From Carcharhinus longimanus (Eukaryota): DNA of 64,000 nucleotides. The stretch spans positions 92,542,854 through 92,606,853 of the forward strand of contig JASCQW010000081.1 in the NCBI GenBank assembly GCA_030264375.1, read 5' to 3'. Position numbers: made by a program. The stretch's first letter is position 1; every line of letters begins with the position of its first letter. This document shows positions 1 through 6,000 of the stretch, piece by piece.

Positions 1-3000
1 GGGGGGATTCTTCATCTTACCATCACTTTCTCTTCTTGTCCCGTCTGAGAAAAAAAACAAACATTTTCCATTTTTTTCAGACACGTGGCAGAAATACCGC
101 ACCACATATTCTGCATACAGAGACTGAAGGACCCAAAACCTGATTGGCTTGTTCGAAAGGCAGCGGATGATTTTATTCCAAGGTGTTTGCGTTTAAACAA
201 TAATAAAATTAACTTTCCCCCGAGGTTATATACGTTCCAGACAGCAGACAATTTATTTATGACTGATGATTTGCGAATTCCGAAGGTTGCTTCGCCAAGC
301 CGGCATCAATTAAAAACAGTAACTTTGACATTTAATTATATATTAGCGTAAACAAAGAAATAAACAACAACAAATCGGCGCATGGAATAGTTTGTCACCA
401 GACAAAATTAAAGAGACAACCGAATTGTTTGGATATTTCGACAGCATTTACGCATGAACAACATTACTCTGCATTTGCGACGCAAATCCAGGCCAGATTC
501 AACCAGATTGCCATATATCCACCCCCTCACCCCGCTCCCCAGAATGGCATAAATGTGTTTTTACAAAAACAACGCACATTTCAAGATCACTTTCACCGGT
601 TTTATAAGCTGAGTTCAAATCCGACTGTCCGATTATTAGCCCAGGCCTCACACCAATGACATACCACTGGGTCATAGCCTGCCCTGAGCTTGCGAGACCT
701 AGGTATTAATTCTCATACGACTAAAACTATAGCAGAAAATCGTAAAAACGGTGATTAATTCCCCTTTACATGTAACAAGTTTCGGTCACATGCCAGAATT
801 TGAATGTGTCAGCCATTGCCAAGGGGCGGGGGGGGGGGGGGTACGGGGGTGGGGGGGAGTCTTCCTCTTAACATCAGTTCCTTNNNNNNNNNNNNNNNNN
901 NNNNNNNNNNNNNNNNNNNNNNNNNNNNNNNNNNNNNNNNNNNNNNNNNNNNNNNNNNNNNNNNNNNNNNNNNNNNNNNNNNNGGGGGGGGGGGGGAGTC
1001 TTCCTCTTACCATCAGTTCCTTCCGTTGCCACACCGGAGAGAAAGTAAACATTTTAAAATTACATTTTTTAAACATGTGGCAGACAAATCACACCATAAG
1101 TTCTGCACACCGAATTGAAAGGTCTAAAAGCTGATTTGGATATTTGAATGTAGGCGGATGATTTTGTCACAGGGGATTTCCGTTTAATCATGAGCTAATT
1201 TAACTTTCTCCCGAGGTTGCATACGTTCTAGAAAGTGGACAATTTATTTATGCCTGATTATATTCGAATTCTGAAAGCGGTTTCGCCCAGCCGGGATCAA
1301 TTAAAACAAATAACTTTGACATTTCATTTTACATAAGCGTAAACAAAGAAGTGAACAATAACAAATCAAAGCACGAACTTGCTTGGCGCCAAATATAATT
1401 GAAGTTAATAGAGTAGAATCGGGAATGATATATGGGCGCCACTGGCCCGCAATATTTTACAGCTTCACATGAAAGGACAAAATGCCTGACAGTATGAAGC
1501 TTCACTGGTATTCAACGATGCATGTCGCACAATCATAATAGCAAGCGGAATGAAATTTTGTCCAGTGAGCTGCCCTGTAACAGTGAAATCCCCATAAAAC
1601 TCTCATTGCGAGTAATTAGCAACATGATATATAGCATAGATGGACTCGCCACAAATTTATACATGGATGTTCCTTGTAAGATTANNNNNNNNNNNNNNNN
1701 NNNNNNNNNNNNNNNNNNNNNNNATCTATATTCCAACTTTAAATCCATGCTCTTGTTCAGAAGTGGCAAGCAACTGTTTTTGTACCGTTTCACACATCAT
1801 TCGGAAGTTGCCATGTCGTGTGCTCTAATTACCTAACATTATGACTCCCACCTGTTTGCAGGTGAAAAGCCGTGAAATTTAAGGAAAATGGGTATAATTC
1901 TTGTAATAACGATGTCTGCTGTTTTAAGCATTTGAATGGGTGTTTTAATACACTGAGCTCTTCCGGAACTACTTTTGCCTCAGTAAGGTCACAGGAAGAT
2001 TTAGTGATGTTGCGGCCTTGATATTGGCGAATGTCCACTCGCTGGCGCAATTCTGTATCAAAAGTGGATGCAATGTGTGCCATTAAAACATGCAATAAAT
2101 TCACTTGCCTAATAGCATTTCGAAACCCGTACCTGCGACCCAATATCAGTCCTCGTACGTAAACTACAAAAGATACAACGACCGCTCCCAGAGAGAAAAA
2201 AAATATGTCCTGGAAGTGCAGCATTATTCCTTCAACATCACTTGACGATATTTGGAAATCCATGTGCAAGTGGTATGTGTGTAGCTTCCACGACCAATTG
2301 TAGCATTTCATCATACAGGTTTTTTTCCTTTGCGGGGGAGGGAATGTTTCCTCACCGGTGAGGCCTGCCCATTTTGCTCATCCAAAATTTTCGTCGAACA
2401 GATGGTCTTAAGGTTGCATTCCACGTAAGGTAGGAATTCGCACAGTTGCGTTCGGGAGGCAATTCTAGGATTTGTACCTAGTGATAGTGTGAGAATGGCG
2501 ATATATTTCAAATACGAAATTGCATGTGTCTCGGAGCCTATTTGACTTGATTTCGTAGCAGTTAGATACAACGGAGTTGTTTGGATATTTAGACAGCATT
2601 TTAGCGTCAAACGCATTACTCTGCATCTGGCGCGCAGGTCTAGGCCAGACTAAACAAGCATGGTATAAGTACACCTTAGAATGGCATTAACGTGTGATGT
2701 GTGCGTTTTACTGCAATTAACATATACTTCACTACCACTTTCACGGGATTTGTAAACTGCATTCAAATCCAACTGTGAAACTTGGAAGCGTTGCCTCCGA
2801 ATATTAATCCAGACATGACTATTCCAAAGACATTGCAACTGGGCCGTGGCGTCCACTTATTTTGCGAGCCTCCAGTCTGTGGTTTTAATGCGATTAAAAC
2901 TATAGACGAAAATATCGTAAACGTGGTGAACAAATCCCTTTTCTATGCAATAACTTTCAGTCAACTGCCAGAATTTGAATATACTAACCATTGCCAAGGG

Positions 3001-6000
3001 TGAAAAATGTTCGTCTTACCATCAGTATCTCCTGCTGATTCGGCTGGGAAAACGGGTGAACATTTTCAAATTACATTTTTGAGACACCTGACAGAAATAC
3101 CGCAAAACTGACAGCCCTAAAAACTGATTAGCATATTCGAATGGTCGTAAATGATTTTATAACCAGGAATTTGCGATTCGCAAGAATTAATTTGTCTTTA
3201 CTCCTAGATCATACACGTTGCTGAAAGCATGCAGTTTAGTTATGACTGATTATTTGCGAATCCTGAAGGTTTTCTCCTCAATCCGGAATCGATTCAATAC
3301 AATGATGTCTGGCAATTCATTGTCTTTTAGCACAAATGAAGAAGTGAACAGCAAGAAATGAGCTAGCGTCAAACAAAATTTAAGTTAATAGAAAAACAAA
3401 TTGGGAGAGCTACGAGAGCTAACTGCCCGAAATCATTTACAGTTTAACAAAAAAAATGACAAAATGATGAAAATATAAAGCTTCTCTGTCATTCGGCAGT
3501 GCACGAGGCTTAATCATAATAGCAAGCAGAATTAGATGCTTTTTTCTGCTGAATTGTTGCGTTAACAGTAAAACCCCAGAACATCACATTGTGACTGATT
3601 AGAAACATGCTGAGATCGGCACATAGGAAATGCAGATATGGATATTCCTTGTCAGGTCGAAGCATATAAAAGTCAGTCATGCTTCTTGCCCCATTCGTAG
3701 TCGAAATTCCAAACTAAAATGCATGGAGTTATTCAGATGTGGCGGGAAATTGTCTTCATATTGTCACACTCCTCATTTGTGGATTCACATAGATTGTGGT
3801 TTGGTTATTTGTGATTATGGCTCTCAACTTTTCGCAAATAAGTATCATTCTTGAATTAATGATGCCTGCCGCTGTAGGCATTTTAATGGACGGTTCAACA
3901 GACTTAGCTCTTCCAGAACTACCTTTGTCTCAGCAAAATCAGAGGAAGAGTCCCTGATTTGCAGACTTAATAGTGGCGAACGAATTTGCGTCCCATATTG
4001 TGAGACCTAAATATATGCCACTCAGTGGTTCAATTGTGAATAAAACATGGCAGTGTGTACAATTAAAACATGAAATAATTAACTTGCCAAGTATCCTTTA
4101 AAATATGTCGAAACCCCTACTTGCTATCCAAGTGCAATCTGCACGGGAAGTACGCTCGATATAAACAACGCGACAAGAGTAAAGCCACGGATGTACAAAA
4201 AAAAGCACAGCACCACAAATTCTGCAAACTGAGTTTGAAAGGACAACAAACTGGTTTGCATATTCGATTGGTAGTGGATGATTTTATCAGCGGGGATTTC
4301 CGTTTAATAATAAATTAAATTTCCGTTACGCCTAGGTTATATTCATTCCAGAAAACATACAATTTATTTATGACGGATAATTTGCCAATTCTGGATGTAG
4401 TTTCTCCCAGCCGGGATCAACTCAAAACATCACCTGTTTCATTTCATTGTCTATTATCGTTAATCAAAAAGTGAACAACAACAAATTGCGATTGAACTGT
4501 CTTCGCACCACTAAAAATGATATCATTTTTAAAAAAAGGCAGTGATACACGAGAGCCAACTGGTCCACAATGTTTTACCGTTCATCATGAAATGCTAAAA
4601 TAACTGAAACTATGAAGTTGTTTTTTTCTGGCATTCAGCGGTTCATGAGCGACAGTCATATCAGCAAGCACAATGTCATTTTGTCCGGTGAATTTCTGTG
4701 CAACAGTAAAATCCCAGAACACTCTCATTGTGACTAATTAGAAACATGCTGAGATAGAGACATGGGAAATTCATCTATCGATGTTTCTTGTAAGATCAGA
4801 GCGAATAAAAGTAAGAAATGCTCCATGCCCATTCCATGTATGAAATTCCAAATTTAAATGCATGACCTTTCTCAGAAGTATTAAGTGGCAGGCAATTGTT
4901 TTTATATTGTTGCATTCTTCACTCGGAGGTTGGCATGGATTTTGGATTAATTTCTGATTAGGACTCCCACGTGTTTGCAGGTAACACACACGCAATTTGT
5001 ATGCAAATAGATATAATTCTTGAATTAATGCTGCCTGACGCTGCGAGTATTTGAATGGACTGTTCAATACATATAGCTCTTCCGGAATTACTTTTGCCTC
5101 AGCGAAGTTACAGGACGATTCCCTGCTGTGCGGTCTTAATAGTGGCGAGCATTTGGACACGTAAACATGCGTCACTCACTGCCTTAGTTGTATGTAAATC
5201 GGGGCTGCAGAGTGTACCATTAAAACGCGCAATAGCTTAACATGCCAAGTGTTCTTTGTAACATCTCGAAGCTCATAGCTGCGATCCATGATCAGTCATT
5301 ACAATGGACGCACACGAGATACAGCCGCCGCTAGGAGAGAGAAAACAAATTGTGGAGTGGAATTACAGCATCGTTCCTTCAACGTCAGCCCGTGAAAATT
5401 TGGAAATCTCTACGCAAGAGCAACGTCTGTAGCTTCCACGGTCAACTGCAACAGTTCACCAGACATGGTCAAGCACCGTCTAAAAGGTGACTACGAACTG
5501 CTGTCCACAACAGAAGAATAGGTAATTAACGTAAATAAAGGAAACCGAAAATAAATTAGGCCTACACGTGCTTGTTGTCGAACCATGCAATTGTTTCTTT
5601 AAATCTGTAAAAAAAAAATCGTGATAAATTCTATACGCTGAGTGGTTTAGGACAGCATTTCACAACGATTGCACAGAATTAAATATTTATTTAAAAACCC
5701 TTGGCCGTGCAGAAAGATTGACTGATAACTGTTTCTTTGATTTGAGAATGCAGGTTTCCAGGTTAAACAATGATCATCGTCTTTGCATAAATGTATATGA
5801 ATTCACATTATATTGTTTGATTCCGTAGCGTCAAAGTTTTTGATCCGTTTGCTCGAAGTTTGTCTGGGGAGGATTTTAATCGTTTGTTGTCATTTGTAGC
5901 ACCTCAAATTTAGTTCGGCTTCTGCCAATGGAACTCGATATCAAAAATGGTTTCCATCTTTTGCCACCTATAATTACAAGTCTTGATGACGTAATTTTCA

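What the first reader, a model, noticed from the sequence alone, without database searches (positions are those of the whole stretch)
1..5450. Exon birth and death in progress: tandem duplication multiplies a 24-nt microexon cassette
Seen: a 1.2-1.9-kb unit is repeated in degenerate form. Its X block carries an intact exon at 21-44 (DGTRRESD) and 3020-3043 (AESAGDTD), an exon with acceptor AG>CG at 1011-1034 (GVATEGTD), and no exon in the copy at ~4210. The exon ends (TGATG|gtaaga) and the 24-nt length are kept while the exon interiors differ strongly, apparently more than the flanking introns. Inference: this shows how the array grows, and may indicate diversifying selection on the peptide modules.
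[Added by the scan's program, not by the reader: the finding's places include an assembly gap (unread letters, written N; its length is only estimated) at 884 to 983, 1685 to 1723. Whether the letters on both sides are continuous or in frame is not known: test that first.]
Basis: partly seen in the sequence, partly recalled or inferred. Interest (0 to 1): 0.7.

Follow-up and report, generated by a model that had tools for sequence, protein, structure and literature searches.

The report
Old tandem repeat carrying exon-like 24-mer
An old, much-diverged tandem duplication at the start of the window carries, at the same place in three of its four units, a 24-base stretch framed by good splice signals, so it may be a small exon multiplied by duplication, but nothing here shows that it is ever spliced or translated.

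Summary
The repeat is real. Window 1-5465 holds four degenerate units built from three blocks (X, Y, Z), 65-77% identical, found nowhere else in the 64 kb.

On the minus strand, three X blocks carry a 24-nt stretch:
- 21-44 and 3020-3043 have a pyrimidine tract plus AG, then ...TGATG|GTAAGA.
- 1011-1034 has CG in place of AG.
- The fourth unit lacks the stretch.

- The 100-N gap at 884-983 is probably an unmerged contig overlap (flanks match 37/39), so the partial copy left of it is not an extra copy.
- The copies are old (K2P 0.27-0.43), not "in progress".
- The exon-less unit fits a duplication or deletion breakpoint with microhomology, about 58 nt upstream of where the acceptor would lie.
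- Two frames are open, not one, and pN is about equal to pS, so diversifying selection is not shown.

The 19-nt interior is unusually divergent (6/19 three-way identity). The significance depends on how gapped windows are treated: 0.4% to 10%.

A neutral simulation reproduces the whole splice-like architecture in 1.8% of units.

No host gene, transcript or homologue could be found. My odds that these are real cassette microexons are about 0.45.

The parts
21..44 (-). Putative cassette microexon e1, 24 nt, with intact signals: AG at 45-46 and GTAAGA at 15-20 (minus-strand reading).
   Evidence: The upstream 14 nt are 13/14 pyrimidine by my own count on the print.
1011..1034 (-). Putative microexon e2. 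The donor GTAAGA (1005-1010) is kept. The acceptor position reads CG (1035-1036), and the segment upstream is 2 nt shorter than in e1 and e3.
3020..3043 (-). Putative cassette microexon e3, 24 nt, with intact signals: AG at 3044-3045 and GTAAGA at 3014-3019.
845..883 (.). Left flank of the 100-N gap. It is a second reading of 984-1022 (37/39 identical), including 12 nt of e2 (872-883) and a donor that here reads GTTAAG. Probably an unmerged contig overlap, not a further copy.
884..983 (.). Assembly gap (100 N) in a poly-G/poly-C tract. Probably spurious, because its flanks overlap. Not filled.
1..413 (-). Block X1: the sequence upstream of e1 on the minus strand, plus e1 and its donor. The window starts in the poly-G (poly-C on minus) that follows the donor, so the array may continue beyond the window edge.
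412..825 (-). Block Y1: lies downstream of e2 on the minus strand. Homologous to Y2 (70% identity, K2P 0.39).
991..1404 (-). Block X2. It is the closest pair with X1: 77.5% identity over the shared 275 nt, K2P 0.27.
1404..2317 (-). Block Z2. Holds the 39-N gap at 1685-1723 and most of a 182-codon open frame (1829-2377, which runs 60 nt on into W). The frame is not kept in Z3 or Z4.
2318..2563 (.). Spacer W, unique in the window, between Y2 and Z2.
2564..3000 (-). Block Y2: lies downstream of e3 on the minus strand.
3010..3359 (-). Block X3.
3360..4195 (-). Block Z3. It is truncated by about 100 nt at its 5' (high-coordinate) end relative to Z2 and Z4.
4196..4207 (.). Junction X4|Z3. X4 ends about 58 nt before the expected acceptor. 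There is a short microhomology (TGCTG-type) between the X and Z sequences at the join.
4207..4486 (-). Block X4, with no cassette.
4486..5465 (-). Block Z4. The homology stops at 5465, and 5466-6000 is unique in the window.

Best explanation
SHOWN
Window 1-5465 is an ancient tandem segmental duplication. Read on the minus strand its order is:
U(>5465) - Z4 - X4 | Z3 - X3 - e3 - Y2 - W - Z2 - X2 - e2 - polyC - Y1 - X1 - e1 - polyC - [window edge]
The copies arose in several rounds with different breakpoints. X1/X2 are the youngest pair and X3/X4 are sisters.

INFERRED
- The ancestral unit lay in an intron of an unidentified minus-strand transcription unit.
- It carried one symmetric 24-nt cassette exon: a pyrimidine tract plus AG, a purine-rich interior, and a donor G|GTAAGA that can pair with U1 snRNA at six consecutive positions.
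- Unequal recombination or replication slippage multiplied it to three copies.
- e1 and e3 still look splice-competent. e2 lost its AG and would be skipped.
- Unit 4 arose from a segment that ended upstream of the cassette, or lost it by deletion.
- Because 24 is a multiple of three and two frames are open, any combination of copies would keep a downstream frame.
- Whether the exons are coding, and in which frame, is not known.
For: - Duplication and block map.
- Splice-like anatomy at a homologous position in three copies.
- TGATGGTAAGA is the longest three-way identical run in the unit: 11 nt, against 8 next in X and 9 in Z.
- The architecture tested was a three-way conserved GTRAG, preceded at an ungapped multiple of three (9-60 nt) by a pyrimidine tract plus AG in at least 2 copies. 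It occurred in 0 of 2000 column shuffles and in 106 of 6000 (1.8%) neutral simulations.
- Phase 0 and phase 1 are open in all three copies.
- The duplication is not an assembly artefact: the copies differ by 23-35%.
Against: - No expression data could be consulted.
- None of the 594 open frames of 45 aa or more in the 64 kb gave a host-gene domain. There were only 2 RVT_1 matches from LINE fragments and 2 sub-threshold matches.
- No further 24-nt candidate of this type exists in the window. The scan gave 9 candidates over 12 length classes on both strands, so chance candidates are common.
- The conserved 11-mer is not significant on a scan-wide i.i.d. null: P = 0.32 to 0.57.
- A 1.8% chance rate per unit is not small for a genome-wide scan.
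- The interior is less conserved than the flanks, the opposite of what typical conserved vertebrate microexons show (that comparison is from my own knowledge).
- pN is about equal to pS, and ts/tv is unchanged from the flanks.
Confidence: 0.45

Rival explanations
1. The same ancient tandem duplication, but nothing is spliced. The ancestral unit happened to contain a splice-like pattern (pyrimidine tract-AG-24 nt-GTAAGA). The copies inherited it, and by chance its donor side is the best-preserved 11-mer.
For: - Chance candidates of this shape are frequent: 9 in 12 length classes in the window.
- A run of 11 or more three-way identities is expected in 32-57% of units.
- The full architecture appears in 1.8% of neutral simulations.
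- No sign of coding constraint: pN is about equal to pS, and ts/tv matches the flanks.
- No host gene was found.
Against: - The longest conserved run coincides exactly with a strong donor.
- It lies directly beside the most divergent ungapped 19-mer of X (1 of 251 windows).
- It is preceded by pyrimidine tract plus AG in 2 of 3 copies, at an identical multiple-of-three distance.
- 0 of 2000 column shuffles reproduce the architecture.
Confidence: 0.4
2. One reading: an array of coding peptide modules now undergoing birth and death, with diversifying selection on the 8-residue modules.
For: - The interior has 6/19 three-way identity against a mean of 11.6/19.
- It is the lowest of 251 gap-free windows in X, and only 0.8% of 266 gap-free windows in Z are as low.
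- The length is kept in e1 and e3, and the frames are open.
Against: - The copies are old: K2P 0.27-0.43.
- pN/pS is near 1 on 8 codons, and the frame itself is undetermined.
- If gapped windows are counted, 10% (X) and 41% (Z) of windows are as divergent.
- The unit without a cassette has a breakpoint, not a decayed exon.
Confidence: 0.08
3. The units are copies of a transposable element or a macrosatellite, not a local gene-related duplication.
For: - The units are about 1-2 kb, degenerate and tandem.
- The window is rich in LINE debris.
Against: - No copy of X, Y or Z occurs anywhere else in the 64 kb.
- No terminal inverted repeats: only 2 short pairs.
- No tRNA-like head.
- No Pfam domain in any frame.
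- No Rfam match.
- The units have different block content, as expected from successive local duplications.
Confidence: 0.05
4. Assembly artefact: haplotigs or mis-joined reads create the apparent copies.
For: One local artefact is likely: the overlap across gap 884-983, and another at 61137-61236.
Against: The units differ by 23-35% and have different block content. That is far beyond allelic or error-level divergence.
Confidence: 0.02

Closest known systems
Tandem exon duplication giving arrays of short cassette exons in vertebrates, for example the avian fast skeletal troponin T 'P exons'
   Same: Up to seven short exons encode a repeating motif and are spliced in as a block (PMC7581897, passages read). 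The logic matches what is proposed here: a short symmetric exon multiplied in tandem within one gene.
   Different: There the exons are shown in mRNA and protein, and the repeats are similar to each other. Here no transcript is known, the interiors share only 6/19 positions, and the host gene is unidentified. I recall the exon sizes and phases of the TnT exons only from memory and did not check them. The TNNT3 paper PMC2447309 was searched for three terms without a match.
Micro-exon genes (MEGs) of schistosomes
   Same: Most of the coding region is made of very small symmetrical exons. Alternative splicing of these exons yields pools of proteins that differ by a few residues, and evolution is accelerated (PMC4350168, abstract and passages). 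The exons are 3-81 bp with introns up to 5 kb (PMC10526429, abstract start in the search listing).
   Different: MEGs are reported as restricted to platyhelminths and always carry a signal peptide (PMC4350168 passage). This window is probably from a cartilaginous fish. No signal-peptide exon, no flanking conventional exons and no transcripts are known here.
Tandem duplicated exon substitution (mutually exclusive homologous exons)
   Same: Adjacent homologous exons of equal length and phase derive from tandem duplication, and most such events are ancient (PMC9741552, abstract start in the listings).
   Different: Those exons are of normal size and stay recognisably homologous at the protein level. 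Here the exons are 24 nt, the interiors are barely alignable, and nothing indicates mutual exclusivity.

Membership tests
Spliceosomal cassette (micro)exon | 3' splice site: pyrimidine tract followed by AG | tested here: met
   Met in e1 and e3. Not met in e2, which reads CG at 1035-1036.
Spliceosomal cassette (micro)exon | 5' splice site GT with a consensus context | tested here: met
   G|GTAAGA in all three copies. The second reading left of the gap has GTTAAG.
Spliceosomal cassette (micro)exon | Inclusion in a processed transcript | not testable with these tools
   No transcript or read data are available. The single exons give 8 residues, below what the protein searches accept.
Spliceosomal cassette (micro)exon | Splice signals conserved beyond the neutral expectation | tested here: inconclusive
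   0 of 2000 column shuffles, but 106 of 6000 neutral simulations. The 11-nt run has P = 0.32-0.57 on the i.i.d. null.
Spliceosomal cassette (micro)exon | Lies inside a transcription unit with other exons | tested here: inconclusive
   Pfam on 594 open frames found no host-gene domain. This test is insensitive to short exons.
Micro-exon gene (MEG-like) | Run of many symmetric micro-exons between a signal-peptide exon and a 3' exon | tested here: not met
   Only 3 candidates, all inside the repeat, and none elsewhere in the window. No signal-peptide exon was identified. The array may continue beyond the window edge.
Micro-exon gene (MEG-like) | Platyhelminth host | tested here: not met
   The best named relatives of the LINE reverse transcriptase are sharks at 63-65% identity.
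Tandemly duplicated homologous exons | Copies of equal length and phase, at homologous positions in duplicated flanks | tested here: met
   e1 and e3 are 24 nt at the same place in X. e2 is uncertain by 2 nt.
Tandemly duplicated homologous exons | Recognisable similarity of the encoded peptides | tested here: not met
   14-15 of 24 nt are identical, most of it in the shared TGATG. The peptides share 2 of 8 positions in phase 0 and 1 of 8 in phase 1.
Transposable element or macrosatellite | Dispersed copies, terminal repeats or TE protein domains | tested here: not met
   The genome outside the window could not be searched.

The most novel reading that the evidence does not exclude
A vertebrate (probably cartilaginous-fish) gene built, like flatworm micro-exon genes, from symmetric 24-nt cassette exons. 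The splice sites are held fixed while the 19-nt interiors diverge faster than the surrounding introns. The cassettes multiply by tandem duplication, which would give a combinatorial set of short variable peptide modules.
Probability: 0.1. Interest if true: 0.6.

Novelty: new member of a known kind. Interest (0 to 1): 0.3.

Why it matters
If the cassettes are spliced, the locus would be a readable record of how a micro-exon array grows. Three rounds of duplication with different breakpoints can still be traced, one copy is disabled at its acceptor, and one unit was made without the exon.

It would also be a rare vertebrate case where exon interiors diverge more than introns. If the cassettes are not spliced, this is an ordinary old non-coding duplication. 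It would then serve as a caution that splice-like patterns in duplicated DNA arise by chance in about 2% of such units.

Tried and rejected
- Rfam over the whole window at gathering scores, and over 1-6000 at E up to 5, to test whether the units host snoRNAs or other RNAs: 0 matches.
- Tandem Repeats Finder: nothing in 1-5465, because the period exceeds its 500-nt limit.
- Z2 open frame (182 codons, 1829-2377, minus strand) as a possible coding exon of a duplicated gene:
  - No Pfam match.
  - The word-indexed search found 41 candidates, none at E of 0.01 or better.
  - The exhaustive HMMER search gave one hit, P0122, E = 1.2e-9. It is a 948-aa tandem-repeat frame. The score sums 13 weak repeats, each at 23-41% identity over 21-44 aligned residues, mostly 9-11 of 27, so I discounted it.
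  - The frame is broken in Z3 and Z4, and identity is the same inside and outside it.
  - Verdict: probably not coding.
- A sub-threshold Steroid_dh match at 21079-21309(+) scored 22.0 bits against a cut-off of 22.6. The translated peptide did not look like that family to me, and I took it as chance.
- The motif match at 40504-40514 has no pyrimidine tract or AG upstream.
- Inverted-repeat scan and tRNA scan for transposon hallmarks: negative.
- A bacterial promoter/terminator scan on 1-200 is irrelevant to a eukaryote and is not used.
- ts/tv test for a purine-composition constraint in the interior: no difference from the flanks.
- Literature searches for micro-exon arrays in cartilaginous fish listed no such case. 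Subscription journals are not covered.

NOT CHECKED
- Genome contigs, phages, plasmids and E. coli collections hold no eukaryote, so they were not used.
- Supplementary files were not needed.
- The joined spliced model was not built or searched.
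Full report
WHAT THE WINDOW IS
The window is eukaryotic DNA of about 39% G+C with 12 runs of N. I scanned all 594 stop-to-stop frames of 45 residues or more against Pfam. That gave two reverse-transcriptase fragments (16815-17582+, 30248-30727+) and two sub-threshold matches that I take as chance. 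The larger RT fragment is closest, among named proteins, to sharks: Scyliorhinus torazame and Hemiscyllium ocellatum at 64%, against 40-51% for birds and turtles. The source is therefore probably a cartilaginous fish and is not human. The median CpG observed/expected is 0.72, which is high for a vertebrate and is left unexplained.

THE GAPS, TESTED FIRST
- Gap 884-983 (100 N) sits in a poly-G tract. The 39 nt before it and the 39 nt after it match 37/39 as suffix and prefix. Of the other 11 gaps, 10 give no overlap (best 0.56), and one other 100-N gap (61137-61236) overlaps in the same way.
- The gap is therefore most likely an unmerged overlap of contig ends. The partial motif at 866-876 is a second reading of 1005-1015, not another copy.
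- The two readings differ at two places, one of which is the +1 base of the putative donor.
- The stretch 1011-1034 lies wholly to the right of the gap.
- Gap 1685-1723 lies in block Z. Its flanks are collinear with unit 4, with spacing 48 nt against 49 nt.
- No N was filled.

THE REPEAT
Self-comparison of 1-5600 with the window gave 18 non-self matches, all inside 1-5465.
- Three kinds of block recur: X (four copies), Z (three) and Y (two). There is also a unique spacer W (2318-2563) and unique sequence beyond 5465.
- Read on the minus strand, the order is:
  Z4-X4 | Z3-X3-e3-Y2-W-Z2-X2-e2-polyC-Y1-X1-e1-polyC-[window edge]
- Y is therefore the sequence downstream of the cassette and X the sequence upstream. 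The array may continue past position 1.
- Pairwise K2P distances are 0.27 (X1-X2) to 0.43 (X2-X3). These are old duplications. I give no date, because no rate was measured here.
- The four X copies group as ((X1,X2),(X3,X4)) with support 0.84.
- X4 stops about 58 nt upstream of the expected acceptor. It abuts a Z3 that lacks about 100 nt of its 5' end, at a short microhomology.
- That is the junction expected if a segment running from inside Z to inside X was duplicated in tandem, in which case unit 4 never had a cassette. A deletion across the cassette, Y and W would give the same junction.

THE CASSETTE
On the minus strand, e1 (21-44) and e3 (3020-3043) read pyrimidine tract-AG | 24 nt | GTAAGA. 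e2 (1011-1034) has the same donor but CG where the AG should be.
- Between two conserved anchors (AAAATGTT and TGATGGTAAGA), copy 2 is 2 nt shorter. The aligner removes the AG itself.
- Phase 2 is closed by the TGA inside TGATG. Phases 0 and 1 are both open in all three copies:

| Phase | e1 | e2 | e3 |
|---|---|---|---|
| 0 | TGQEEKVM | VWQRKELM | PNQQEILM |
| 1 | DGTRRESD | GVATEGTD | AESAGDTD |

.

IS IT MORE THAN CHANCE?
- TGATGGTAAGA is the longest three-way identical run in the unit. But with 58% three-way identity, such a run is expected in 32% (X) to 57% (X+Z) of i.i.d. trials.
- Loose candidates (pyrimidine tract-AG-N-GTRAG) are common: 9 over 12 length classes in the window, only 2 of them with N = 24, and none forms a further array.
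- I then tested the whole architecture: a three-way conserved GTRAG, preceded at an ungapped multiple of three by a pyrimidine tract plus AG in at least two copies. It occurred in 0 of 2000 column shuffles.
- The fairer null took real window sequence as the ancestor and three neutral descendants at the same divergence. There it occurred in 106 of 6000 trials, or 1.8%.
- This is suggestive but not decisive for a pattern picked out by eye in a genome-wide scan.

THE INTERIOR
- Pairwise identity of the first 19 nt is 9/19, 10/19 and 9/19, against 62-72% for X. Three-way identity is 6/19, against a mean of 11.6.
- It is the lowest of 251 gap-free windows in X, and only 0.8% of 266 gap-free windows in Z are as low. 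If gapped windows are counted as mismatched, 10% (X) and 41% (Z) of windows are as low.
- pN (0.34-0.46) is about equal to pS (0.19-0.55) in either frame.
- Transitions and transversions are in the same ratio as in the flanks.
Diversifying selection is not shown. Eight codons in three copies cannot show it.

OTHER CONTENTS OF THE UNIT
- Z2 holds a 182-codon open frame (1829-2377, minus strand).
- It has no Pfam match and no hit in the word-indexed search.
- Its only hit in the exhaustive search is a tandem-repeat frame whose score sums 13 weak repeats.
- The frame is broken in Z3 and Z4, and conservation is the same inside and outside it. I take it as non-coding.
- There are no Rfam families, tRNA-like heads or terminal inverted repeats.

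WHAT COULD NOT BE DONE
- No transcript, read or genome data of the species were available.
- The single cassettes translate to 8 residues, too short for any protein search here.
- The joined, spliced model was deliberately not built or searched.
- The open collections hold no eukaryotic genomes.

COMPARISON WITH KNOWN SYSTEMS
The proposed mechanism is that a short symmetric exon is multiplied in tandem and the copies are then kept, disabled or lost.
- It works like known tandem exon duplication (PMC9741552, abstract start in the listings) and like the avian fast troponin T P exons (PMC7581897, passages).
- The "variable modules between fixed splice sites" idea resembles schistosome micro-exon genes (PMC4350168, abstract and passages; PMC10526429, abstract start in the listing).
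- Membership in the MEG family fails on host and on the missing signal-peptide exon and longer array.
- Membership in "tandemly duplicated exons" is met for position, length and phase. It is not met for peptide similarity or for expression.

VERDICT
- The duplication is real, old and well resolved.
- The exon status is a plausible inference, at about 0.45. A chance splice-like motif is nearly as likely, at about 0.40.
- "In progress" and "diversifying selection" are not supported.
- Interest is modest unless transcripts confirm splicing.

Noticed in passing
window 61137-61236: A second 100-N gap whose flanks overlap as suffix and prefix (95% over 57 nt). In this assembly, 100-N gaps can mark contig ends that in fact overlap.
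   Followed up: partly
window 1829-2377 (-): A 182-codon open frame in block Z2 with a hydrophobic stretch. It has no credible homologue, and the frame is not kept in the two paralogous copies. Its length is unexpected by chance in AT-rich DNA, but there is no sign of coding constraint.
   Followed up: yes
window 16815-17585 (+) and 30248-30730 (+): Decayed CR1-type LINE reverse-transcriptase fragments. Their best named relatives are sharks (63-65% identity), which suggests a cartilaginous-fish source.
   Followed up: partly
whole window: The median CpG observed/expected is 0.72, and about 0.9-1.0 within 1-5600. This is high for a vertebrate genome and is unexplained.
   Followed up: no
window 4196-4207: Short microhomology (TGCTG-type) between block X and block Z exactly at the X4|Z3 junction. 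It points to microhomology-mediated duplication or deletion.
   Followed up: partly
window 8893-8899 (-): ATGGCAG followed by GTAAGT on the minus strand, upstream of the array. It could be a phase-1 start exon ending in G, or it could be chance.
   Followed up: no
window 1-6, 823-857, 984-996: Poly-G tracts (poly-C on the minus strand) begin 16-18 nt downstream of the putative donors of e1 and e2, but not of e3. The tract is the likely cause of the assembly break.
   Followed up: partly
window 14428-14497: A GATG/GATA-type microsatellite, the only tandem array reported by TRF.
   Followed up: no
window 12001-58000: Cumulative GC skew rises steadily (G>C on the plus strand), while 6001-10000 is strongly C-rich on the plus strand. 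This could reflect transcription direction or repeat orientation.
   Followed up: no
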